A stretch of 64,000 bases of DNA from a virus, in the IMG/VR virus record IMGVR_UViG_3300027963_000040; one strand, written 5' to 3'. The notes beneath the pieces were generated by a model. The model was given only the letters and a program-made list of their open reading frames with translations. It had not been told where the DNA came from and did not search any database. Shown here in pieces: positions 10,430 to 21,834 of the stretch. Position numbers and translations under genes: made by a program. Numbering within the stretch: the first letter of the stretch is position 1; every line of letters begins with the position of its first letter.

Positions 10430-11171
10430 CAGATTTTGCCCTCACTGAAAGGATCTTTTTCGGTAAAGTCAATAAAGTCATCCGATCCCAGCGGGAAGTT
10501 ATCAGTTCCTTGCTGAATCGTATCGTTTTCAGACGCTGGATTGATAGTTTCAGGTTTGTAACCCTCTACAACCAGATAATTACTATCTTCATCAGTCAAA
10601 TTGACACCCTCTTCATTCATAATAGCATAATCAAGAATATTAACAGAGTAATTTTGCTGAATTGCATCGATCTCAGGAATACCAGTGTTGAATTGTTCGT
10701 TGCTGTATTCGAAGAGCTCACAAATCAGTTCCCAAGTCTGCAAAGCACCGAACTGATAAAACATCTCGAACTTATTGACGAACTTGATCTGGAAACATTT
10801 GCGATTCAGTGGGAAGTAAATCAGATCGCCTTCGTTCGGTCTTACCTGATCAGTTACAATAGCAACTTCCTGATTGAACGTTCTCTGGGCAATGCTGAAT
10901 ACAACCTGATCGCGAATCTGCAGTCCAAACTTAGACATGAAGTTACCATCGCCAGTAAATCCATCAATTGATTTGATGTAGAGCTCTACCATGATAGCAT
11001 GATTGTATTGTGATGAATCGTCTTCGCCGAGAAGCTTATCATAGTTGGTGATAACGCGAGGAATGTAATACATATCCTCGCCGTAGATTTTGATAGACTC
11101 TATGATCAGATCCTCGTAAAGGTTCTGTTCGTTACTAGCAGCAAAATTATTGAAAAAAAATTGGTGGCCAT
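10429..11171 (-). CDS. gp14: Neck protein gp14; natural start (ATG 11171) is one base out of frame at a T8 run
   Basis: Body has SKFGLQIRD, RPNEGDLIYFP and ELFEYSNE motifs. The N-terminus MATNFFFNNFAASNEQNLYEDLIIESIKIYGED is recovered only if one base is added at 11153-11160. The ORF track starts at the internal ATG 11073. Confidence 0.88.
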
Positions 11172-11830
11172 TAGGCTATACCTCCTGCGGTCTTTGACTT
11201 GTTAGCTCTTCTTTTTTCCCAACCAAGTCTAACTTTTTCTTTCCACTCTTCTGACTGATAATAGCCGGATTCAACACGTTTCTTTTGAGAAACTTTACCA
11301 GCGTCAGAAGCTAGTTTTTTTGTGTTTGGGTTTGACGATCTGGACTCGCTCATTTTTTTTCTCGACTCTTCGCTGTGTTTGCTTCCAACTCTAGAAGCAA
11401 TAACAGCAGCCGCATGTTCGGCACTATTTTTAGAGTTTTTTCTTCCGGCGTGAAGTTTAGCGGCATGCTCTTTCGATATACCATTAGGAAATCTTTTTTT
11501 GTACGCTTCTCTCAATTTTTTTCTGTGTTCCTCGGTCATTTGACCTTTAGCCCAACCATCAAAATAAAAGCCATCGTTGTTATGTCTGTTGTAAAATCCC
11601 TCATTTAGTTTAGCGTCAACAGATTGAAGAATTTTTGCTTCCAATTTTCTTATGTCCGCATGTTTCCCTCTAGCAACGATCTGCCTCGAGAAATCTTGAG
11701 GTCTCCGATTATACTCTTCCATCATGTATTTACTAGAACAAACGTAACCGTCATCCGTCGAACCTTTATGAGATCCGACATACAACTTGTTATTAACTTT
11801 ATCTGTCCAACAGTACACGAAAGCTTCCAT
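11171..11830 (-). mobile_element. Free-standing GIY-YIG (Seg-like) homing endonuclease with NUMOD3-like basic repeats
   Basis: N-terminal AFVYCWTD...LYVGSH...YVCSS and FYNRH; C-terminal HSEESRKKMSE and MTEEHRKKL repeats; inserted between gp13 and gp14. Confidence 0.88.
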
Positions 11831-12692: not shown

Positions 12693-13340
12693 ATGAGCTT
12701 ACAAAAAATAAGATTTAGCGAACTTGATTTTAAATATGATACCGACAGATTATTAAAAGAACTCAATATATTAAAATTTGTTCAATATTTGACTGATGCA
12801 TCAACTCATACTAATCACTATAAAATGCCCATATTCAATCAATCACAAATAAAAAATTGTAAAATTTGGAAAGGTATTAATTTAACAAATCCGCCCGATT
12901 CAGTTTTTATAAAAAATTCTAGTTTGAGCAAAATCCGTAATGAGAATAGCGAACTAGAGTGGGTTTGGGTCAAAGAATTTCCTTACATGCAATATATAGT
13001 CAAGAGTCTAGGTTTTTTAAAAACAAATCTTGTAAGAGTTCTTGTTTTAGAACCCGGATCTATCGGTCCCGTTCACAACGATAACTCTACTGGATCTTAC
13101 TATAGTGTTAACAGAACGTCGATAACTCTTAACATAAGCGATGGCGGAAGCCCATTGGTTTTTTTGAACGGAAACGAAATTCATAGTAAGATGCCTGGTC
13201 CTACATTTCTATTTAGAGATGATTGTTGGCATGGGATTCCGGAAACCAAAACACAAAGGTTTCAAGTGAGAATAAACGGAATGATTAACGAAACTGTAAA
13301 TAAATTGTTATTACAAAATACAATTATGGAGATTATCTAA
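12693..13340 (+). CDS. 2OG-Fe(II) oxygenase, aspartyl/asparaginyl beta-hydroxylase-like
   Basis: Cupin strand VRVLVLEPGSIGPVHND (HxD), distal WHG and RFQVRING. Confidence 0.75.
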   Translation: MSLQKIRFSELDFKYDTDRLLKELNILKFVQYLTDASTHTNHYKMPIFNQSQIKNCKIWKGINLTNPPDSVFIKNSSLSKIRNENSELEWVWVKEFPYMQYIVKSLGFLKTNLVRVLVLEPGSIGPVHNDNSTGSYYSVNRTSITLNISDGGSPLVFLNGNEIHSKMPGPTFLFRDDCWHGIPETKTQRFQVRINGMINETVNKLLLQNTIMEII

Positions 13341-14200
13341 TGAAAATTTACCTTGATCAAGTTCCCGACTCTTTGACTGTTATGGGACACATAAAAGCGA
13401 CAACGGATTGGAACAAAGCTTGCGAATCTGTTAAGCCGAAAACAAAAACACATCAATATGAATTCATTATACAGGATTTTGATCAACAATCAATCTTTAA
13501 TGCAATTCAACATAGCCTTGCAATCTATGGAGAACATGGCTGGAAATCTTCTGAAGGCGAATCAAAAGATTATGTCGGATTCAGTCTTGTTTACAATCCA
13601 GATCATCAGGAGTATTCGAATCTTCATAGTAGCACTCTTGGAACCTCTAAAAATCAAAAAAATCAATTTTTTTGGGGTAAAACAGAAACTCATACAAAAT
13701 TAAAAAATAGTTATTTCGATACGCTCGGATTTAATAAACAAACTCCTGCTAGTCAGTTTGATGCGCTCGGAAAGTTTCTTTCTAGAAGAAAATGTCAAAT
13801 GATACGAGGAAGATTATCTTCTATAGATGGTACACAAATAGAAAATACATCTGTTGGCTGGCACAGAGACGAACCCGTATTTGAAAATTTAAGATTGAAC
13901 GTGCCAATTGTTACTACGAAAGATTACCTATTTCAGATGGAAGGTAAAGAACCTTGTCATCTTGAAGTCGGTAAAGCATACAGCTGGGATACAAATACGC
14001 CTCATAGAGTTTTTAATACAAAGTGGTCCGAAACGAAACGGACACATCTTGTTATAGGTTTCAGCCCTTGGTTAAATTATAACGAAAAAGAACGTTATTG
14101 GGAATCAAATGAATTTTATGGAAAAAAACATCCATTTGATATGCTGATAGATGAAGATGTGTTCGCCGGTCTAGATTATAATCAGATGTTCCATTCGTAA
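13340..14200 (+). CDS. 2OG-Fe(II) oxygenase, aspartyl/asparaginyl beta-hydroxylase-like
   Basis: WHRDEP (HxD), LRLNVPIVT, HLEVGKAYSWDTNTPHRVF and RTHLVIG; TAATG coupling to the upstream oxygenase. Confidence 0.78.
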   Translation: MKIYLDQVPDSLTVMGHIKATTDWNKACESVKPKTKTHQYEFIIQDFDQQSIFNAIQHSLAIYGEHGWKSSEGESKDYVGFSLVYNPDHQEYSNLHSSTLGTSKNQKNQFFWGKTETHTKLKNSYFDTLGFNKQTPASQFDALGKFLSRRKCQMIRGRLSSIDGTQIENTSVGWHRDEPVFENLRLNVPIVTTKDYLFQMEGKEPCHLEVGKAYSWDTNTPHRVFNTKWSETKRTHLVIGFSPWLNYNEKERYWESNEFYGKKHPFDMLIDEDVFAGLDYNQMFHS

Positions 14201-14610
14201 CGATGTGCTGTCGGTTCAATACCGAGGCTTTTAAAATTCTCAATCATTTCAGGTGAAGCGAGTAATGAAACGATAGTTGTCAAACGTTTCACACCAAGTT
14301 CTTTTAATGCGTCAATAGCCATCTGACGTGTCGTGATTGCAATTCTTTGTTCTCTATATTCCGGTTTCACATAAGTCAAATTAGAGTCGTAAAACTCCGA
14401 CGTGATTTTATGATAAACCCTAATTCCTACTGGAACATCATCAACTTTTAGTAGGAAAAAAATGCCATTCGTAACATTGATATGAGGAATTTCTGGAGCT
14501 AGAGCTCCTTTTTCCATTAATTCTTTCCAGGAATCTCCCCAAAAACCAGCAACAATACCGAAACGTTCTTTATTTTCTTCTGGTTTTACTTGTTCAATTG
14601 TAATATTCAT
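14182..14610 (-). CDS. GNAT-family acetyltransferase
   Basis: Acetyl-CoA motif A-like YVKPEYREQRIA; 142 aa with a GNAT-like pattern. Confidence 0.7.
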   Translation of the reverse strand: MNITIEQVKPEENKERFGIVAGFWGDSWKELMEKGALAPEIPHINVTNGIFFLLKVDDVPVGIRVYHKITSEFYDSNLTYVKPEYREQRIAITTRQMAIDALKELGVKRLTTIVSLLASPEMIENFKSLGIEPTAHRYEWNI

Positions 14611-14623
14611 TTAAATCTCCAAT

Positions 14624-16036
14624 TTACTTTTTTGCAACTGTTGGAATTGCTTCTTCTCTAATCTGCGGTACTAATTGCTCAATGCCTCTAATTTTACCCC
14701 ACAAATCTTGTCTATCTTCTGGTAGCTGATAATCTTCATCAATAGCAGTAATCTTGTAAGGAAGTGCTCCGGTAGCGGCTTCTAACGCAATAGCAAAGAA
14801 TGGAAGATGATCCGAGTAAGCTGCATCACAAGACAACTTGAAATACTCTCCTTCAAGAAACATACAGGAACCTTTACATACCTGTAATAGAGGACACTTG
14901 GCGCAATCATCTCTGAACTTCCAATGCGTCGATGTATTCAATTTCACATTGGCTAATTGATTAACATGCCCAATTCTATGAGACTTACCATTCGGAGCTT
15001 TTGAAACAGCCGTGACATTCTGACAGGTGAGCACATTGCCCTGAAGATCAACAGCCATGGTATCTTCTTGATCCATACCACACTTCTGACCTAAAGTGTC
15101 GGCTGATCTGTAATTACCCCAGCTATTAAGCCATTCTTGAACTCTTTGTTTGACAATGATGAAACGATTAATATCATTATTACGGATCGCCATCAAAGTA
15201 GTCATTCTATGACCTACATGTTCTTCATCACCTTGTGGCACATTTTTTTTACCACCTTCATCATATACATCGATGAATCCACCTTCACCGATCATGAAAT
15301 TGCTCTGTGGATTTAAATTAAACAGATCCTCAAAGAATGTCTGAATACTAGCGCGATCCATGTTTTCGCGATGCACCATTGAATTGATGCTGATTCTACC
15401 TTCAGGAAGGAAGCGATTGAATAATTTAAACAAGATTTTTCTTTGAACTGGATCTTCAAACGGATCTGGACCTCTTACATTCTGACCTGGACCATCGTGA
15501 GATACAGCCATGCTAAAACCCATGTCATACAACCAATCAATGATTTCTTCTGTGATCAAAGAGCCGTTAGTAATAACCGAAAATTTTGTTTTTGGATATT
15601 TTTCACGAAGACGTTCAGCCAATGGCTTCATGATCTTCCAATACACAAAAGGTTCACCACCCCAGAATTCAATTTTCTCTGGTGGGATCTTAAGCCAACT
15701 GTCCATGTTATTGATAAATCGATCCATCAATTTTGTATTCGAATGATCGATGTTCGGTACAAATCTTTGAGAACAATATTCACAAGAGTAGTTACAAGAA
15801 AGACCCATCTGAATCTTCAGAAGTTTAATGTCCGACTTACTACCTGGAGTATTGACTGAGATTGGCTTTACAGCATCGTTTGACTTTTGAGACCATACCG
15901 GTTTGATGTTAACCAATTTGTTCTTAGAATCAAAAATCTCAGAAGTCATATTATCGTAAATATAACTTACTTGATCCAATTTTTCAATTTTGTTATCAAC
16001 AAAAACTGGTTTGGTACATTCTAATAAAAATTTCAT
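14624..16036 (-). CDS. Radical SAM enzyme with SPASM domain (peptide/protein maturase type)
   Basis: CNYSCEYC (CX3CX2C), FWGGEP, ITNGSL and SHDG; C-terminal C...C...CAKC-X5-C-X3-C-X11-C. Confidence 0.93.
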   Translation of the reverse strand: MKFLLECTKPVFVDNKIEKLDQVSYIYDNMTSEIFDSKNKLVNIKPVWSQKSNDAVKPISVNTPGSKSDIKLLKIQMGLSCNYSCEYCSQRFVPNIDHSNTKLMDRFINNMDSWLKIPPEKIEFWGGEPFVYWKIMKPLAERLREKYPKTKFSVITNGSLITEEIIDWLYDMGFSMAVSHDGPGQNVRGPDPFEDPVQRKILFKLFNRFLPEGRISINSMVHRENMDRASIQTFFEDLFNLNPQSNFMIGEGGFIDVYDEGGKKNVPQGDEEHVGHRMTTLMAIRNNDINRFIIVKQRVQEWLNSWGNYRSADTLGQKCGMDQEDTMAVDLQGNVLTCQNVTAVSKAPNGKSHRIGHVNQLANVKLNTSTHWKFRDDCAKCPLLQVCKGSCMFLEGEYFKLSCDAAYSDHLPFFAIALEAATGALPYKITAIDEDYQLPEDRQDLWGKIRGIEQLVPQIREEAIPTVAKK

Positions 16037-16064
16037 TATATATTTCCTTTATATCATTCACTAT

Positions 16065-16484
16065 TTATTTACACTGACAATTACAATCACATGCACAATC
16101 GCATGCACAAGCACAATTACAATTACAGTTATTGGTAACAACACCATATGGATTGCAATTATAAGTGCAAGCACAATTGCAATTGTATTGAAGCCAATAT
16201 CTACCGTCACAATTTGCACAATTTACATTATAACAATTTAGACAATTAACACAATTAGTTGGAAAATCGCATGCACAATTACAATTACAGGCACAATTTC
16301 CATTATTACAATTACCGTCATTGTTTTTCTGATACCATTCTTTATTATGAGAAGTGTTCAAATCCCAACCACGTTGACCATCTTTTGTATTATAATAGAT
16401 GTCTGACATAGCAAACTGACCACCTGCGCCAATAACAGAGCGCACGTCACCAAAAGATATTGTTCCTGAAGTAGGTGTTCCCAT
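16065..16484 (-). CDS. Asn-Cys repeat protein (25 Cys), candidate rSAM substrate/fibre-tip protein
   Basis: N-terminus MGTPTSGTISFGDVR; all 25 Cys lie in the last ~81 aa; ends CQCK. Confidence 0.8.
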   Translation of the reverse strand: MGTPTSGTISFGDVRSVIGAGGQFAMSDIYYNTKDGQRGWDLNTSHNKEWYQKNNDGNCNNGNCACNCNCACDFPTNCVNCLNCYNVNCANCDGRYWLQYNCNCACTYNCNPYGVVTNNCNCNCACACDCACDCNCQCK

Positions 16485-16505
16485 ATCAATTTATTTCCGA
16501 ATTAT

Positions 16506-16913
16506 TTATTTACACTGACAATCACAATTACAATTACAATTACAATTGTTTTGAACACATTGTGAAGCATTGCAATTATACGGTCCGCAATTTCCATCAT
16601 TACAGTTATTTTGTAACCCATAACCACCGCAATTGATACAATTAACATTTCCTGCATAAACACAATTTTGACAATTTTGTGGGAAATCGTAGCAATTACA
16701 GTTGAAAGTACAATTGCCGTTATTACAGTTGCCTTCGTTGGTCTTGTTGATATAAGCTTTACCGTAATAGTTACTCATAGCATAAGATTGTTGACCAGGT
16801 CTGGTGTTATTGTAAACATAAGCCATATCGATGATTGTACCACTGGCGCCACCGCCATTGATTTCAACGTGAATATCATTTAAGCTTAAAGGACCACTGC
16901 CCGGTAACGTCAT
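16506..16913 (-). CDS. Asn-Cys repeat protein (18 Cys), paralogue of the preceding ORF
   Basis: N-terminus MTLPGSGPLSLNDIHVE; shares GNCNNGNC, DFPxNC, LQxNCN and CQCK; starts immediately after the stop of the S74 fibre gene. Confidence 0.8.
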   Translation of the reverse strand: MTLPGSGPLSLNDIHVEINGGGASGTIIDMAYVYNNTRPGQQSYAMSNYYGKAYINKTNEGNCNNGNCTFNCNCYDFPQNCQNCVYAGNVNCINCGGYGLQNNCNDGNCGPYNCNASQCVQNNCNCNCNCDCQCK

Positions 16914-16914
16914 G

Positions 16915-18180
16915 TTAAATTCTCTTTTCTAGTTCTTCAACTTTAGCGGAAAGCTCTTTGATGGCTTCAATTAACAACGGCACAATCTTTTCATACTGAA
17001 CCGTTTTATAGTTTTCGCCTGATTTAGAGACATATGTATCCTCATCTATATATTCTCTATCAAATGGAGCCATCTGCACTGCTTCGGGAAGAATTGCTTC
17101 AATTTCGTGAGCAATAACACCAACTTGTTTGCTTTGATCTTTATAACCAAAACCTGCGGCAGTATCATTGCTATTGAATGTCACACCACGAATTGCTTTG
17201 ACTTTATTCAGAGCATCTGGTATTAGAGTGATATTGGTTTTTAATCTTACATCAGAGTAATAAGCAATGATGTTACCCGAAGTATGTGTTTCACCTGAAG
17301 TGTAAGTCGAGCGAGTGAGAACAATATGAGCGCCATCCCAATAACTTGCAACCGCAAGGGTACCTTCGTAATATACTGGACCAACAACACCGCTTGATTG
17401 CACATAGCCATTGAAATCAAACCTGTCACCACCATTGAAGTATAATCGCCTGTCGCCATTTCCAAATACTACTTGTCCTGTGCTACCACTACTTATGTAG
17501 GTACGAATTGACCCCGTTACCCCGATGTCAGAGGTAAATGTATCACCTGCTCTATTTGCAGGTGTATAACCCAATCTTGCTGGAATGTTTGTATAATAAG
17601 ATGATAGCTGTCCGCTAAAATAAGTTGCATTGTTAACAGTGCCATTAATTGCATTAGAATAAGCAGTTGCAGAATTGCCAGTGATTTGACTTTGAATTGT
17701 AGCAAGAGTTACGCCGCCATGATATGTGCTATTATTAGAAGTTAACGTTGCAACGTTAGCCGATAAACCAGCTGTAGTTTGATAGAGTGCAGCAGAATTA
17801 GCAACAGCATTACTGTAGGCAGAAGCAGCATTACCAGTGATCTGACCTTGAACCGTTGTTAATGTCAACCCACTAAAGTTATTTGAATTATTAGCAGTAC
17901 CTTGATAGATTGTGGAATTGACTGTAACACCAGAAAGTGATAATTGTCCACCAGTAATACTTGTGTTAACAGTAGCATTACCAACAAAATATGATGATGT
18001 ACTTATTGTGACGTTAGCACCAACCACAATTGATGTGGTAGCATTAGCTGTTGCTGTATTAACGGATGTTGCATTGAGTGATGTTGCAGTGATGACTGAT
18101 GCATTGACTGCAGTTGAATTAGCTGTGAAGTTTCCGTTGACGGTTAGCCCGTTCTTTACTACGAAATTGTTATTTGCCAT
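16915..18180 (-). CDS. Tail fibre with C-terminal intramolecular chaperone (peptidase S74-type)
   Basis: YYSDVRLKTNI, VGVIAHEIEAILPEAV and YEKIVPLLIEAIKEL coiled coil. Confidence 0.88.
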   Translation of the reverse strand: MANNNFVVKNGLTVNGNFTANSTAVNASVITATSLNATSVNTATANATTSIVVGANVTISTSSYFVGNATVNTSITGGQLSLSGVTVNSTIYQGTANNSNNFSGLTLTTVQGQITGNAASAYSNAVANSAALYQTTAGLSANVATLTSNNSTYHGGVTLATIQSQITGNSATAYSNAINGTVNNATYFSGQLSSYYTNIPARLGYTPANRAGDTFTSDIGVTGSIRTYISSGSTGQVVFGNGDRRLYFNGGDRFDFNGYVQSSGVVGPVYYEGTLAVASYWDGAHIVLTRSTYTSGETHTSGNIIAYYSDVRLKTNITLIPDALNKVKAIRGVTFNSNDTAAGFGYKDQSKQVGVIAHEIEAILPEAVQMAPFDREYIDEDTYVSKSGENYKTVQYEKIVPLLIEAIKELSAKVEELEKRI

Positions 18181-18213
18181 CTCAGTTCCCTATCCCTTGA
18201 GATTGTTTTTTAC

Positions 18214-18221
18214 TATTTATA
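18214..18221 (-). promoter_or_regulatory. T4-type late promoter TATAAATA heading fibre, Cys-rich ORFs, rSAM and GNAT
   Basis: Exact consensus about 33 nt upstream of ATG 18180. Confidence 0.8.
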
Positions 18222-18591
18222 CCCAAGGTAAAGCTTTAGGCAATATAGGATTTTTTAAAAGATTTAATTTTTTTTGCAATAATTCATTAATTTTATCATC
18301 CGGAGACAATGCATATTTTTCGCCAGGCATTTGTCCAGGTATAGTTTTTGCTGTAATTATACTTTTAATCCATGACACAATAAGATCTTTGTTTAGTTCG
18401 TTAAATGGTACATAATCTTGCGGTAGAACATCGACAGCGGTGAATTCAGTTTCGCCATCAAAAACGACTGTATTACCATCTTCGTCGATTGCAATTTTTT
18501 TCCAATGAATTAACACAACAGCATCAGGATGATCCGGTGATTCATTTCTTACATATAAATTAGTAATTTCCCAATCATATTTTATCGTCAT
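18217..18591 (-). CDS. Fibre-associated hypothetical protein
   Basis: MTIKYDWEI...YVPFNELNKDLIVSWI...LPW pattern, typical of small proteins next to fibre genes. Confidence 0.65.
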   Translation of the reverse strand: MTIKYDWEITNLYVRNESPDHPDAVVLIHWKKIAIDEDGNTVVFDGETEFTAVDVLPQDYVPFNELNKDLIVSWIKSIITAKTIPGQMPGEKYALSPDDKINELLQKKLNLLKNPILPKALPWV

Positions 18592-18594
18592 TGT

Positions 18595-20424
18595 TTATTC
18601 TTTCTGTAAGAGTTTTAACTGTTTTTTCAAATCCTCAACTTCACCAAGTAGACCTTTTACAGCCTCAACCAAAACTGGTATTAGTTTTTTTTCATCTACT
18701 GTTAAGTATGGGTCTTCTGGATCATAATTGATGTCATCTTTCGGTGTGAGCGTCCCATCAGCTTCTTTATTTTTATATTGTAACAACTGAACTGAAGCTG
18801 CTTGAGGTAATACTGCTTTGACTTCTTGTGCAATAAGACCTATCTGCACACCAGGCTCGGTATTCTCTAATATTTTGTTGCCAATATCATTCCATTCGAA
18901 ACGATAACCGTTAAGACCATTAATGATATCACGCCAATCATCAATCTTTTTTATATTCTTTTTGAGGCGTCTATCTGACCAATAAGCTATGATATTACCT
19001 GTGGCATATATATTACCGCCTGCTTCAAATAGCCAACGTGTTACATCGTCTTGTGTACGAAAACCATGAGACCACTGATTTGACGCACCACCTCTATAAT
19101 ACGAAGTGTCACCATAAACAAAATTCAATCGTGCCCAGCCTTCAGAAGAATAATTCCAAGTTCCAGTATTAAGGTTTAAATAATTTAATCGTGACTGTCC
19201 ATTTGGATTGCAATAATACCCAGTGTCATCACTATCGTAGAATATAGGAGCTCTTAATGAACCACCCGCCTGAAGAAAAGCGCTCGTCTCAAAGTTAGTG
19301 CCATTAAAGTATAGATAGTTACCGCCGTTACCAAAATAATAAACACCAGTAGTTGGCGAGCCAGGTCTATAAGCATTTACATCGCCTGCAACATGAAGCT
19401 TATATGTCGGTGAAGTCACACCAATTCCCGTGTTACCATTAGAATCAATACGCACGCGTTCAGCATTATTTGTAGCAAAAACCAATGTTCCATCAGCTGG
19501 TGAAAACATTCCACCGTCAGTATCATTGGTGCCAAAAGAATATCCAGCAACACCCGTTCCATAAGTTGCACCACCCAAAGCCCTGATACCACCATTCACA
19601 TCAAGTCTTGCGGTTGGTGAAGTTTGATTGATTCCCATATTACCACTAGAATCAATACGCACACGTTCAGCTGATGATGTATACAAACTTATGATTCCAT
19701 TGGCAGCACTTCCAAGTTGCCCAATATGCATTACCATATTATTTGCAATAGAAAACATTCTGGGATTATTTGTACCAGCAACATCAACATATAAGCCCAC
19801 GGTTGTATTGTCTGGGTTTAGAAAATTTATTTCTCCACCTTCGCTGCTGCCGCCATTTAAGAATGTACCAACACCATCAGTTTTACTACCACCAACTACA
19901 TGCAATTTACCAGTGGGAGATGCCGTACCAATACCTACGTTACCATTAGCAACAAAATAAGCTGAAGTTCCAATAGTGAATGTGTTAGTAGAAGAGCTAT
20001 TAGCAAATGTGGCAGTGCCTTGGTAAATTGTAGAATTAACGGTTACACCTGATATAGAAATCTGACCTGCAGTTATATTTGTATTTACTGATGTATTGCC
20101 GACATAATGCGTTGTAGCATTGATAAATGAATTTGTACTAACATATAAAAATGAGCTAGAAGATAAAGTGACATTGCCAGACACATTAGCGGCGCCAACA
20201 ATATCAAGTTTTGCTGTAGGAGATGCAGTACCAATACCTACGTTTCCATTAGCAACAAAATAAGCTGAGGTTCCAATTGTTGCAACATTGGTCGTTGTGG
20301 TCAAATTAGCCGAATTAGCAGTACCAACAGACATCGATGTAATAGCAGTCGCATTAGCGGTTATGCTATTATACATAGCATTTGCTATAAAACCAAAATT
20401 TGAGAGATCATTTGTAATAGTCAT
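18595..20424 (-). CDS. Tail fibre with GNVGIGT repeats and C-terminal S74 chaperone
   Basis: GNVGIGTASPT and ERVRIDSxGN repeats; YWSDRRLKKNI; GLIAQEVKAVLP. Confidence 0.88.
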   Translation of the reverse strand: MTITNDLSNFGFIANAMYNSITANATAITSMSVGTANSANLTTTTNVATIGTSAYFVANGNVGIGTASPTAKLDIVGAANVSGNVTLSSSSFLYVSTNSFINATTHYVGNTSVNTNITAGQISISGVTVNSTIYQGTATFANSSSTNTFTIGTSAYFVANGNVGIGTASPTGKLHVVGGSKTDGVGTFLNGGSSEGGEINFLNPDNTTVGLYVDVAGTNNPRMFSIANNMVMHIGQLGSAANGIISLYTSSAERVRIDSSGNMGINQTSPTARLDVNGGIRALGGATYGTGVAGYSFGTNDTDGGMFSPADGTLVFATNNAERVRIDSNGNTGIGVTSPTYKLHVAGDVNAYRPGSPTTGVYYFGNGGNYLYFNGTNFETSAFLQAGGSLRAPIFYDSDDTGYYCNPNGQSRLNYLNLNTGTWNYSSEGWARLNFVYGDTSYYRGGASNQWSHGFRTQDDVTRWLFEAGGNIYATGNIIAYWSDRRLKKNIKKIDDWRDIINGLNGYRFEWNDIGNKILENTEPGVQIGLIAQEVKAVLPQAASVQLLQYKNKEADGTLTPKDDINYDPEDPYLTVDEKKLIPVLVEAVKGLLGEVEDLKKQLKLLQKE

Positions 20425-20615
20425 TGATTATTACTTTCTTCTGCTGGCTTGATAATAAGATCGTCAGATTCAACTAATTGCATGATGTTGGCGTAGTCAG
20501 TGTTGGCTGGGTCGATGGGCACAGATGAAGTAACGCCATTGATATCGACCCTTATGCCGCCAATTGTTGACGTGCCTAAAATGCAATAATATTGCGCGTT
20601 TGTGTATTTCTGCAT
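20421..20615 (-). CDS. 64-aa fibre assembly/chaperone-like protein (copy 2)
   Basis: Starts at MQKYTN (20615); VPIDPANTDY motif; near-identical C-terminal half to 21640..21834. Confidence 0.75.
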   Translation of the reverse strand: MQKYTNAQYYCILGTSTIGGIRVDINGVTSSVPIDPANTDYANIMQLVESDDLIIKPAEESNNQ

Positions 20616-20617
20616 TA

Positions 20618-21643
20618 TTAAAGCTCCGCTGCAAAAGTTAAATAAGTAGTCGAATCTATTGTAGAAAATGCAAACCCGGCTGGAACAGACACTGCCGCAA
20701 ATCGCATTGCCATTGAACCGCTGCCCGCAAATATTGATGGAGTTCCAGATATATTCCCTGCCGTCCATGTACCAACAATTGTTGCAGTTGGATTTGCTCT
20801 CATTGTTGCTGGATAAGTCAATGTTAAAGTGCCGTAGTTACCCGAAGTGGCATATCCAGCAAAATAAATATCAGCAGCCGTGTTGCCGCCAAGCTTTAAA
20901 AAATACCGCTGGCACAGCATCAACGTCTCGCCAATCGGCAGCCGCTCAAATGGAGTAGCTACACTACCAGCTTCTAGTTGAACATTGCCAATTGTCCAGG
21001 TTCCGGAAGTCTGCGCGCCCACCGTCAGCACAATCTCAATCCCGGTTGTGGCTGCGCTCGGGACGCTGACAGAAGCTGTGTAGTTAGTGACGGTGCTAGT
21101 CACGGTAAACGTGCCGGTGGCAATCTGCGTGCGCGTGGGGCTTGCTAACGTGCCAAAGGTATCAGCCGTATTGGCGTAGTAAGCCGTCCATGTCACTGTA
21201 GTCAGCAGCGAGTTTGCCAGATCAACGCTAAAGGTTGCCGTGCCGTTGTTTAGATCATAACTATTGATAGCCTCAACTCGCTGACCAAAACCGATTGCAG
21301 TAACGCTCGCCGCTCCTGTGAACCTGTAACGATACTGATCGATACCAGAACCAGCAACACGTTGCCCTGTTACGTTAGCTCCAGTACAATAACCATAGAA
21401 ACGATCCACGCTGTAGGCTAGAGCAGCTGCAGCAGTAAATGTTTGCGCCGATCCAGCATTGCGCTGGTCAACAGCCATACCGCCATTAATGATTCTATTA
21501 CGGCGATATCCATTTGTTAATGTTGGTAATACCGTAGTACCATTGATTGTCATTCCAGTCACTGCAGTATTATTAGCAGTTATGCTATTATATACAGCAT
21601 TAGCTATTGTAGCTACCTTGGAAAGACCTACTGAATCAGTCAT
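20618..21643 (-). CDS. Tail fibre/receptor-binding protein (RRNRIING domain)
   Basis: RRNRIINGGMAVDQRN...QLEAGSVATPFERLPIGETLMLCQRY; paralogous to the C-terminal half of 21837..23957. Confidence 0.8.
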   Translation of the reverse strand: MTDSVGLSKVATIANAVYNSITANNTAVTGMTINGTTVLPTLTNGYRRNRIINGGMAVDQRNAGSAQTFTAAAALAYSVDRFYGYCTGANVTGQRVAGSGIDQYRYRFTGAASVTAIGFGQRVEAINSYDLNNGTATFSVDLANSLLTTVTWTAYYANTADTFGTLASPTRTQIATGTFTVTSTVTNYTASVSVPSAATTGIEIVLTVGAQTSGTWTIGNVQLEAGSVATPFERLPIGETLMLCQRYFLKLGGNTAADIYFAGYATSGNYGTLTLTYPATMRANPTATIVGTWTAGNISGTPSIFAGSGSMAMRFAAVSVPAGFAFSTIDSTTYLTFAAEL

Positions 21644-21834
21644 TGATTATTGCTTTCTTCTGCTGGTTTGATAATAAGATCACCAGATTCAACTAGTTGC
21701 ATGATGTTGGAATAGTCAGTATTGGCTGGGTCAAGTGGGACAAACGAAAGCACTCCATTGATGTCAACAGAAATACAAGTCACGATACCGCTGTATTTAT
21801 CTGTAATATATTGAATATTAGTGTATGTAATCAT
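21640..21834 (-). CDS. 64-aa fibre assembly/chaperone-like protein (copy 1)
   Basis: VPLDPANTDY motif; follows the RRNRIING-domain fibre. Confidence 0.75.
   Translation of the reverse strand: MITYTNIQYITDKYSGIVTCISVDINGVLSFVPLDPANTDYSNIMQLVESGDLIIKPAEESNNQ

What the first reader, a model, noticed from the sequence alone, without database searches (positions are those of the whole stretch)
12693..18221. Phage-encoded RiPP-like cassette that may chemically modify fibre-tip proteins: two Asn-Cys-repeat substrates, radical SAM/SPASM, GNAT and two Asp/Asn-hydroxylase-like oxygenases
Seen: behind a late promoter (18214-18221) the order is S74-chaperone fibre, Cys-rich ORF (18 Cys), Cys-rich ORF (25 Cys), rSAM with CX3CX2C and a 7-Cys SPASM domain, then GNAT. 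Two HxD...H 2OG-Fe(II) oxygenases converge from the other strand. The block sits between the fibre genes and neck gp13. Established: SPASM rSAMs next to Cys-rich peptides install Cys thioether crosslinks (sactipeptides; ranthipeptides such as PapB, Cys to Asp C-beta, and NxxcB, Cys to Asn C-beta), and AspH-type oxygenases beta-hydroxylate Asp/Asn. Inference: the substrates are structural fibre-tip proteins rather than secreted peptides (no transporter, protease or leader cleavage motif is nearby). The phage would then build a thioether-stapled, hydroxylated and possibly acetylated receptor-binding tip in the reducing cytoplasm. I know of no described system that post-translationally crosslinks a virion adhesin this way.
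Basis: partly seen in the sequence, partly recalled or inferred. Interest (0 to 1): 0.93.

Follow-up and report, generated by a model that had tools for sequence, protein, structure and literature searches.

The report
Enzyme cassette maturing phage fibre tips
A T4-like phage encodes two small cysteine/asparagine-rich tail-fibre-tip proteins directly followed by a dedicated radical-SAM enzyme, a pairing that recurs beside tail-fibre genes in many unrelated phages and prophages; this suggests that these viruses chemically modify (probably cross-link) their host-recognition tips, which no paper I could search describes.

Summary
On the minus strand, behind a TATAAATA motif, lie an S74-chaperone fibre, two paralogous Cys/Asn-rich ORFs (18 and 25 Cys), a radical SAM enzyme with a complete SPASM motif, and a weak GNAT. 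Two AspH-like oxygenases converge from the plus strand.

- **Pairing.** The rSAM clade sits next to proteins ending in a (Cys-x)n run in 43 of 52 prophage loci with enough flank. The background is 1 of 409 genes. The same holds in myo-, sipho-, podo- and Ackermann-type phages.
- **Fibre identity.** Those partner proteins are tail fibres, or small proteins encoded just after an S74 fibre.
- **N-domain.** The window's two ORFs share a folded ~58-aa N-terminal domain. In other phages this domain heads Gp38-type adhesins, which lack the rSAM.
- **Free C-terminus.** The Cys run always ends at the C-terminus, or is exposed there by a self-cleaving Hint or S74 domain.

So these are fibre-tip proteins, not secreted RiPPs. 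The chemistry (thioether, hydroxylation, acetylation) remains inferred. The GNAT and oxygenases are accessory, not core. I found no paper describing this. Earlier agents of this scan reported the same system on other DNA.

The parts
18214..18221 (-). TATAAATA, a T4-type late-promoter-like motif 33 nt upstream of the fibre ATG
   Evidence: 9 copies in the window against 4.3 expected. Another copy sits before the gp13-like gene. The function is inferred.
16915..18180 (-). 421-aa tail fibre with a C-terminal S74 intramolecular chaperone. The predicted self-cleavage site is at ...NIIAYY|SDVRLK.
   Evidence: PF13884 E 1.5e-13. phrog_5668 tail fibre E 1.4e-30. The A/Y/S/D/K cleavage block is invariant in alignment A6.
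16506..16913 (-). Cys/Asn-rich protein A (135 aa, 18 Cys). It has an N-terminal adaptor domain (residues 1-58) and a conserved Cys/Asn domain ending ...CNCNCNCDCQCK. Its start overlaps the fibre's stop codon.
16065..16484 (-). Cys/Asn-rich protein B (139 aa, 25 Cys), a paralogue of A (50% identity) with the same N-domain and the same C-terminal ...NCQCK.
14624..16036 (-). Radical SAM enzyme with a full 7-Cys SPASM domain (470 aa). It is the proposed maturase of proteins A and B.
   Evidence: (phrog_1802 E 2.5e-58).
14182..14610 (-). GNAT-like acetyltransferase (142 aa), the last gene of the minus-strand run. It is a lineage-specific accessory.
   Evidence: A homologue appears only in L003.
13340..14200 (+). 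AspH-like 2OG/Fe(II) oxygenase (286 aa) with HxD...H...R conserved. It is a recurrent accessory of the cassette.
   Evidence: Homologues lie next to the rSAM in RSP15, L021, L024/25, L068, L075 and L098.
12693..13340 (+). Second probable cupin/AspH-like oxygenase (215 aa). The assignment is weak.
   Evidence: Atlas neighbours with PF05118. (HxD and distal His line up, E 0.21). No Pfam hit.

Best explanation
The two Cys/Asn-rich ORFs are small tail-fibre-tip (adhesin-type) proteins.

Their folded ~58-residue N-terminal domain is an adaptor that docks them onto a fibre. The likely partner is the S74-processed 421-aa fibre encoded just upstream, as Gp38 docks on Gp37 in T2/S16-type phages. Their ~75-residue Cys/Asn domain, which ends in a free C-terminal (x-Cys)n run, is the substrate of the adjacent radical SAM/SPASM enzyme.

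The enzyme would modify the Cys residues in the host cytoplasm before lysis. The most likely product is Cys-to-carbon thioether cross-links (sactionine or ranthionine type, possibly onto the neighbouring Asn). This would give a compact, redox-insensitive tip. The AspH-like oxygenase(s), and perhaps the GNAT, add lineage-specific tailoring such as Asn beta-hydroxylation or acetylation.

**Shown:** gene content and motifs; the genomic pairing of this rSAM clade with (Cys-x)n-ended fibre proteins; the fibre context; and the sharing of the N-domain with adhesin-type proteins.

**Inferred:** the enzyme-substrate relation, the type of chemistry, incorporation into the virion, and the docking partner.
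For: **Pairing**
- 43 of 52 prophage loci with at least 2.5 kb of upstream flank carry a same-strand ORF with a (C-x)n run within 5 kb upstream of the rSAM. The background is 1 of 409 downstream genes and 0 of 128 other window ORFs.
- The same pairing appears in IMG/VR loci L003, L004, L007-L012 and L014.
- It also appears in every metagenome place with enough flank found starting from the Cys-rich protein.

**Fibre identity**
- 7 of 10 run-bearing prophage proteins hit PHROG tail-fibre families; L031 scores E 3e-82.
- The side tail fibre of Ralstonia phage RSP15 ends ...NCQCGN. Fibre gp028 of Achromobacter phage JWF has NCNCDCNCNCS directly before a Hint domain. Both lie beside rSAM homologues of 43-50% identity.
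- The order S74 fibre, then Cys-rich ORF, then rSAM recurs in lambda-like, SU10-like and T4-like contexts.

**N-domain**
- AlphaFold2 pLDDT is 82-89 for this domain.
- A profile search gives 458 hits, and in the 150 best listed the match starts at residue 1-3. The C-terminal bodies include Pfam GP38 adhesin, phrog_2056 host specificity, Gly_rich_2, FN3+S74 and a beta-propeller.
- Two Gly-rich GP38-type members lack any rSAM within 5-8 kb.
- In the cultured Ochrobactrum phage ORM_20, an N-motif ORF overlaps the stop codon of an S74 fibre gene.

**Free C-terminus rule**
- The run ends 0-4 residues from the stop codon in most loci, or is followed directly by a Hint domain (26 proteins) or an S74 domain.

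**Enzyme**
- All cluster Cys are invariant.
- In a FastTree, rSAMs paired with N-domain substrates cluster together: 5 label changes against a shuffled mean of 9.6, reached in 0 of 500 shuffles.

**Precedent**
- SPASM enzymes install thioethers in proteins. CrpC acts on CrpA (PMC13692751). QhpD acts on QhpC; NxxcB and PapB are ranthipeptide enzymes (PMC10114670).
Against: - There are no biochemical or proteomic data, so the enzyme-substrate relation rests on gene neighbourhood alone.
- The rSAM scores far below the cutoff of every characterised maturase family, and Pfam finds no PqqD-like RRE. The reaction type therefore cannot be read from homology.
- AlphaFold2 gives no confident fold for the Cys domain, even with 60 sequences.
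- The structural match of the N-domain to Gp38-domain proteins is weak (Foldseek E 0.2-0.7). No PDB sequence match exists.
- In some loci (L009, L010, L014) the Cys-rich gene is not next to a recognisable fibre gene.
- 9 of 52 prophage loci show no run-bearing ORF.
- The GNAT recurs only in the near-identical relative L003.
Confidence: 0.6

Rival explanations
1. The fibre-tip reading is right but the chemistry is different. The rSAM/SPASM enzyme might perform another radical reaction on the Cys run: Cys to formylglycine as in anSME, C-C or inter-chain links, or C-terminal macrocyclisation. Alternatively the run might mainly bind metal or form disulfides after lysis, like the HxH iron sites of the T4 gp37 needle, with the enzyme preparing it.
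For: - NCBIfam scores are similarly low for PapB (66 bits), QhpD (55 bits) and anSME (39 bits, but aligned over the full length).
- The JWF homologue was annotated as a sulfatase maturase.
- CxC runs resemble metallothionein motifs (my own knowledge).
- The strict free-C-terminus rule would fit chemistry at the C-terminus. [quoted passage not shown]
Against: - Most characterised SPASM enzymes that sit next to Cys-rich substrates make thioethers (PMC10114670, PMC13692751).
- The anSME target motif C/S-x-P/A-x-R is absent from the ORFs.
- Nothing tested here separates these chemistries.
Confidence: 0.2
2. The Cys-rich proteins are not virion parts. They would be assembly chaperones for the upstream S74 fibre, like T4 gp38 or gp57A, and the rSAM would modify or load them.
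For: A gene immediately downstream of a fibre gene is the classic place for a fibre chaperone. T4's own gp38 is a chaperone rather than an adhesin (my own knowledge).
Against: - In prophages, and in RSP15 and JWF, the Cys run is the C-terminus of the fibre protein itself.
- Some variants carry their own S74 chaperone domain, which marks proteins that are themselves fibres.
Confidence: 0.1
3. This is a classical RiPP. The N-domain would be a leader, and the Cys/Asn core would be cut off and released as a bacteriocin or signal on lysis.
For: - The layout of a Cys-free N-terminal part and a Cys-rich C-terminal core next to an rSAM/SPASM enzyme mimics RiPP clusters.
- CrpA also has a leader-like N-terminus.
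Against: - There is no protease, transporter or cleavage motif.
- The N-domain is a folded domain shared with adhesin-type proteins that have no rSAM.
- The run is fused to full tail fibres elsewhere.
- The cassette sits in late structural operons.
Confidence: 0.06
4. The neighbourhood is incidental. The rSAM would serve another phage need, such as nucleotide or cofactor chemistry or counter-defence.
For: Phages carry other rSAM enzymes. Viperin-like and Campylobacter-phage rSAMs appear as weak hits.
Against: - The pairing ratio is 43 of 52 against 1 of 409.
- It holds across four virion morphotypes and two proteobacterial classes.
- The rSAM tree tracks substrate architecture.
Confidence: 0.04

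Closest known systems
CrpC/CrpA of Methanococcus voltae (Dieter et al. 2026, PMC13692751)
   Same: A SPASM radical SAM enzyme is encoded next to a large Cys-rich protein that has a Cys-free N-terminal part and repeated C-terminal Cys motifs. It installs intramolecular thioether (ranthionine) links in a protein rather than a short peptide. AlphaFold gives low confidence for that Cys-rich part as well.
   Different: - The window's rSAM is not a member of the CrpC family: TIGR04463 scores 33 bits against a cutoff of 525.
- The substrate motif differs: Asn-Cys runs here, C-x-x-Q/D in CrpA.
- The setting is a phage late tail-fibre operon, not an archaeal metal-related cluster.
- There is no biochemistry for the phage system.
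QhpD/QhpC of quinohaemoprotein amine dehydrogenase, and the ranthipeptide enzymes NxxcB and PapB (reviewed in PMC10114670)
   Same: These are rSAM/SPASM enzymes that link Cys sulfur to beta or gamma carbons of Asp, Glu or Asn. QhpD acts on a protein subunit.
   Different: - Scores are far below the family cutoffs: QhpD 55 of 453 and PapB 66 of 340.
- No PqqD-like RRE was detected.
- The substrate here is a virion fibre tip with up to 25 Cys.
Gp38 adhesin on the processed Gp37 fibre of T2/S16-type phages (PMC12032242)
   Same: A small protein is encoded right after the distal fibre gene. It has an N-terminal attachment domain and a distal recognition domain. The window's N-domain also heads proteins whose body matches Pfam GP38.
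   Different: - The distal domain here is Cys/Asn-rich instead of a polyglycine sandwich.
- It comes with a dedicated rSAM enzyme.
- The window ORFs themselves do not match PF05268.
- Homology of the N-domain to the T-even attachment domain was not shown.
Self-cleaving C-terminal modules of fibres: the S74 intramolecular chaperone and Hint/BIL domains
   Same: Family members of the Cys-rich protein carry either module directly after the Cys run. The upstream fibre has an S74 domain.
   Different: The window's two ORFs carry neither module. They simply stop after the run.

Membership tests
Radical SAM superfamily | CX3CX2C motif for the SAM-binding [4Fe-4S] cluster, plus a PF04055 match above its cutoff | tested here: met
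   CNYSCEYC is present. PF04055 scores 42.6 bits against 29.5. C81, C85 and C88 are invariant in 13 homologues.
SPASM subfamily | The 7-Cys motif CX9-15GX4C ... CX2CX5CX3C ... C for two auxiliary clusters | tested here: met
   TIGR04085 scores 33.2 bits against 27. C319, C338, C378, C381, C387, C391 and C403 are invariant.
PapB, QhpD, CrpC (TIGR04463), SCIFF and anSME equivalog families | Score above NCBIfam's curated cutoff | tested here: not met
   PapB 65.9 of 340; QhpD 55.5 of 453; TIGR04463 33.4 of 525; SCIFF 40.3 of 425; anSME 38.8 of 349. The enzyme belongs to a separate clade, phrog_1802.
RiPP biosynthetic cluster (classical) | A short precursor with a cleavable leader, an RRE on the maturase, and a protease and/or exporter | tested here: not met
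   The block has no protease or transporter, and the rSAM has no PqqD/RRE Pfam hit. The N-terminal part is a folded domain shared with adhesin-type proteins.
Gp38 tail-fibre adhesin (PF05268) | A match to the Gp38 body with glycine-rich motifs | tested here: not met
   Neither window ORF has a Pfam hit. Only the N-terminal domain is shared with PF05268-bearing proteins such as P0127, 25.8 bits against 25.
Aspartyl/asparaginyl beta-hydroxylase (PF05118), the 286-aa ORF | Pfam score above cutoff, and 2OG/Fe(II) ligands HxD/E...H with a 2OG-binding Arg | tested here: inconclusive
   It scores 21.6 bits against a cutoff of 22.6. H175, D177, H222, R223 and R234 are invariant in 4 homologues. The substrate is unknown.
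GNAT acetyltransferase (PF00583), the 142-aa ORF | Pfam score above cutoff | tested here: inconclusive
   It scores 19.3 bits against a cutoff of 20.7. phrog_1249 acetyltransferase gives E 6e-6.
S74 intramolecular-chaperone fibre | A PF13884 match and the conserved Ser-Asp cleavage block | tested here: met
   E 1.5e-13 for the 421-aa fibre and 3.7e-16 for the 609-aa fibre. The AY-SD-RLK block is invariant.

The most novel reading that the evidence does not exclude
The rSAM may turn the free C-terminal (Asn-Cys)n tail of trimeric fibres or tip proteins into something with no counterpart in RiPP chemistry. One possibility is an inter-chain thioether knot that covalently locks the trimer tip. Another is a new sulfur- or metal-bearing structure that is itself the receptor-contacting or envelope-piercing element. 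This would make enzymatic radical chemistry a general, mobile step of virion tip assembly in myo-, sipho- and podoviruses of Proteobacteria.
Probability: 0.2. Interest if true: 0.92.

Novelty: new variant of a known kind. Interest (0 to 1): 0.8.

Why it matters
Receptor-binding tips decide phage host range. They are thought to be built only by folding, chaperones and self-cleavage. A dedicated radical-SAM enzyme, with optional oxygenase, ATP-grasp, desaturase-like and acetyltransferase partners, that matures the tip would add a new layer of enzymatic post-translational chemistry to virion assembly.

It would also explain an orphan phage rSAM family (phrog_1802). It would extend protein-level thioether cross-linking, so far known from QhpC and CrpA, to viruses. 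And it would supply a portable module for making cytoplasm-compatible, disulfide-free, stable binding domains.

The idea is directly testable in the cultured phages RSP15 and JWF.

Tried and rejected
- Megablast of the block against 50,697 phage records gave no match.
- tblastn of ORF B against the phage records gave no match, probably because of low-complexity masking.
- Pfam, PHROGs and NCBIfam gave nothing for the two Cys-rich ORFs or the 215-aa ORF.
- AlphaFold2 on the Cys domain with 24 and then 60 sequences stayed below pLDDT 50, so no fold could be read.
- VIA-align against PDB representatives found nothing with Z of 2 or more.
- PDB sequence searches with the N-domain profile, a GP38-type relative and the oxygenase family gave nothing usable.
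- hhalign of the 215-aa ORF against the 286-aa family (E 0.21) and the 271-aa family (E 0.37) was not significant.
- No whole genome is held for this window.
- One tree script gave no answer. It was rerun with FastTree, where greedy gene calls under-label some substrates.
- Five literature searches for rSAM together with phage fibre, RBP or RiPP found nothing relevant. The cyanophage paper PMC12801897 mentions only an unrelated rSAM 'antibiotic' gene. One search found no paper on phage JWF, only general rSAM papers.
- The idea that the 215-aa ORF stands in for the 271-aa accessory family was rejected.
Full report
**What is in the window**

The window is from an uncultured T4-like myovirus. Its large terminase is at most 56% identical to those of the Sinorhizobium phiM12/phiN3 group and the Pelagibacter and Methylophilales myophages. 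The block has no megablast match among 50,697 phage records.

The minus strand carries five tightly packed genes:
- a 421-aa fibre with a C-terminal S74 intramolecular chaperone (PF13884 E 1.5e-13);
- a 135-aa ORF whose start overlaps the fibre's stop codon;
- a 139-aa paralogue 21 nt further on;
- a 470-aa radical SAM enzyme after a 28-nt gap;
- a 142-aa weak GNAT after a 13-nt gap.

TATAAATA lies 33 nt before the fibre ATG. Two plus-strand ORFs converge on the GNAT. The 286-aa ORF is a near-threshold Asp/Asn hydroxylase with HxD...H...R invariant among its homologues. The 215-aa ORF is AspH-like only through Atlas neighbours. A gp13-like head-tail adaptor flanks the block.

The rSAM has CX3CX2C and a full SPASM motif. 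All ten cluster Cys are invariant in 13 homologues. It scores far below the cutoff of every characterised maturase family and belongs to the unannotated phrog_1802. The counts of 18 and 25 Cys, with 15 and 16 as Asn-Cys, are correct.

**The two Cys-rich ORFs are a real protein family, not low-complexity noise**

A search found 27 short relatives. Their alignment (A1) has two parts.
- The first is a Cys-free N-terminal domain of about 58 residues, with consensus MTLPASGxIS....N.E.G ... YY.KAWYQ.
- The second is a ~75-residue domain with about 14 nearly invariant Cys and 8 nearly invariant Asn. Its blocks read GNCNNGNC, NCNC, NCxNC, VNCxNCD, WLQNNCNCACTYNC and YNCNCxCxC.

AlphaFold2 folds the N-domain with confidence (pLDDT 82-89). 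It gives under 50 for the Cys domain, even with 60 sequences.

**The N-domain is an adaptor of small adhesin-type fibre proteins**

A profile of the N-domain finds 458 cluster representatives (E of 1e-3 or better). In the 150 best listed, the match starts at residue 1-3. Their C-terminal bodies vary:
- Cys/Asn-rich, 46 of the best 150;
- Cys-rich followed by an S74 chaperone;
- Cys-rich followed by a Hint domain;
- Gly-rich bodies matching Pfam GP38 adhesin, phrog_2056 (host specificity) or Gly_rich_2;
- FN3 plus S74;
- a beta-propeller.

Foldseek and the Atlas point weakly the same way, to Gp38-domain phage proteins. In the cultured Ochrobactrum phage ORM_20, an ORF starting with this motif overlaps the stop codon of an S74 fibre gene.

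This is the T2/S16 layout, in which Gp38 docks through an N-terminal attachment domain on the fibre Gp37 (PMC12032242). Homology to the T-even attachment domain itself was not shown.

**The rSAM clade travels with (Cys-x)n-ended fibre proteins**

*Cultured phages.* Ralstonia phage RSP15 (Ackermannviridae, 50% identity) has the order: side tail fibre ending ...NCQCGN, a 271-aa unknown, a homologue of the window's 286-aa oxygenase, then the rSAM. Achromobacter siphophage JWF (43% identity) has a fibre with NCNCDCNCNCS directly before a Hint domain, one unknown gene, then the rSAM.

*IMG/VR loci.* Eight of 14 loci carry N-domain Cys-rich homologues next to the rSAM. L008 has a 68-aa Cys-rich ORF after two S74 fibres. 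L005 has an N-domain, a short GNCQCDCAC stretch and a Hint domain.

*Starting from the Cys-rich protein.* Every place with enough flank shows the rSAM 0-2 genes downstream, usually with an S74 fibre directly upstream. These places include a lambda-like prophage, an SU10-like podovirus and other siphoviruses. The S74-fused form is followed by an ORF with the rSAM N-terminus.

*Controls.* Two GP38-type Gly-rich N-domain proteins have no rSAM within 5-8 kb.

*Prophage scan.* A profile scan of 185,579 species genomes returned 78 loci. Most are in Beta- and Alphaproteobacteria: Limnohabitans, Polaromonas, Burkholderiaceae, Rhodobacteraceae and Bradyrhizobium.
- Of 52 loci with at least 2.5 kb of upstream flank, 43 have a same-strand ORF within 5 kb carrying a (C-x)n run, mostly CNCNC....
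- The background is 1 of 409 genes downstream of the rSAM and 0 of 128 ORFs elsewhere in the window.
- Seven of ten such proteins are PHROG tail fibres; L031 scores E 3e-82.

*Tree.* In a FastTree of 78 rSAMs, those paired with N-domain substrates cluster together. The label needs 5 changes against a shuffled mean of 9.6, reached in 0 of 500 shuffles. The window sits in a starred all-N-domain clade. Relatedness alone can produce part of this signal.

**The free C-terminus rule**

In short forms the run ends 0-3 residues before the stop codon. In prophage fibres it ends 0-4 residues from the end in most cases. In 26 longer proteins and in JWF it abuts the catalytic Cys of a Hint domain (...CxCxC|CFPxxxxVxMADG). 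In others it is followed by an S74 domain.

So three different devices, a stop codon, Hint cleavage and S74 cleavage, all yield the same product: a protein whose last residues are the Cys run. That fits a distal fibre end, and a flexible tail that can be threaded into an enzyme.

**Accessory genes vary**

- A ~250-300-aa family with no Pfam match and an Ig-like C-terminus lies between the substrate and the rSAM in about 35 loci. It is absent from the window.
- The 286-aa oxygenase family recurs in about 10 loci.
- RimK-like ATP-grasp enzymes (L004, L005) and a pair of fatty-acid-desaturase-like proteins (L009, L014) occur elsewhere.
- The GNAT recurs only in L003, the near-identical relative.

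The core of the system is therefore the (Cys-x)n-ended fibre protein plus the rSAM. The window's oxygenases and GNAT are plausible tailoring enzymes, but this is unproven.

**Mechanism and rivals**

The best-supported model is that the rSAM modifies the Cys-rich tip in the cytoplasm, most likely by thioether links. This rests on analogy with SPASM enzymes that act on Cys-rich substrates, including whole proteins. CrpC acts on CrpA (PMC13692751) and QhpD on QhpC; NxxcB links Cys to Asn (PMC10114670).

Alternative chemistry, such as formylglycine, C-terminal cyclisation, inter-chain links or metal binding, is not excluded. A chaperone role, a secreted RiPP and a coincidental neighbourhood are each disfavoured by the fused fibre forms, the shared adaptor domain and the pairing statistics.

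**Novelty**

Six full-text searches, including one for a paper on phage JWF, found no paper linking a radical SAM enzyme to phage fibre or receptor-binding proteins. The kind of chemistry has precedents; the biological setting does not.

Earlier agents of this scan reached a similar reading on other genomes. I treated those notes as leads. One of them gave me the CrpC/CrpA paper, which I then read.

**Limits**

Noticed in passing
L007:3791-7443: A 162-kb IMG/VR myovirus carries two rSAM paralogues (438 and 480 aa, 46% and 70% identical to the window's) behind one Cys-rich N-domain ORF. A member of the 271-aa family lies between them.
   Followed up: partly
L004:7440-8670 and L005:2820-4062: A RimK-like ATP-grasp enzyme plus a conserved ~95-111-aa protein sit beside the rSAM/Cys-rich pair. 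They may form another tailoring module, for example C-terminal amino-acid ligation.
   Followed up: partly
L009:4378-5819 (same in L014): Two tandem fatty-acid-desaturase-like membrane di-iron proteins lie between the rSAM and a 295-aa Cys-rich protein. That protein's C-terminal extension (SKIIC...) is neither Hint nor S74.
   Followed up: no
L056, L058, L066, L069, L071, L072, L076, L077, L086, L088, L092 (Rhodobacteraceae and related Alphaproteobacteria prophages): ORFs of 85-200 aa (stop-bounded calls, so the true genes may be shorter) ending ...CNCNCRC, or similar runs ending YC or RC, lie about 0.6 kb upstream of the rSAM. The greedy gene call missed them. In six of these loci (L058, L069, L076, L086, L088, L092) an S74 fibre lies further upstream, mostly followed by a member of the 271-aa family.
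   Followed up: partly
window 15990-16241(+), 16061-16219(-), 16502-16663(-), 16668-16883(+): Several listed ORFs inside the Cys-rich genes are alternative-frame or antisense artefacts of the TGT/AAT-rich repeats, not genes.
   Followed up: no
window 18217-18591(-) and 20421-21834(-): The other fibre genes are followed by different small partners. A DUF7936 protein (PF25590, E 2e-9) follows the 609-aa S74 fibre, and ~64-115-aa proteins ending ...DPANTDY...IIKPAEESNNQ follow the two RRNRIING fibres. So each fibre in this phage has its own downstream partner type.
   Followed up: no
window 11171-11830(-): A 219-aa ORF is inserted between the gp13-like and gp14-like genes. Its N-terminus (FVYCWTDKVNNKLYVGSHKG) looks like a GIY-YIG homing endonuclease. 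The relative L003 has a homologue with a different C-terminus.
   Followed up: no
L109:4001-4420 (Ochrobactrum phage ORM_20): A cultured phage has a 139-aa ORF with the N-domain motif but no Cys-rich body, overlapping the stop codon of an 894-aa S74 fibre gene. The deposited annotation starts this ORF 30 nt later and so misses the motif.
   Followed up: partly
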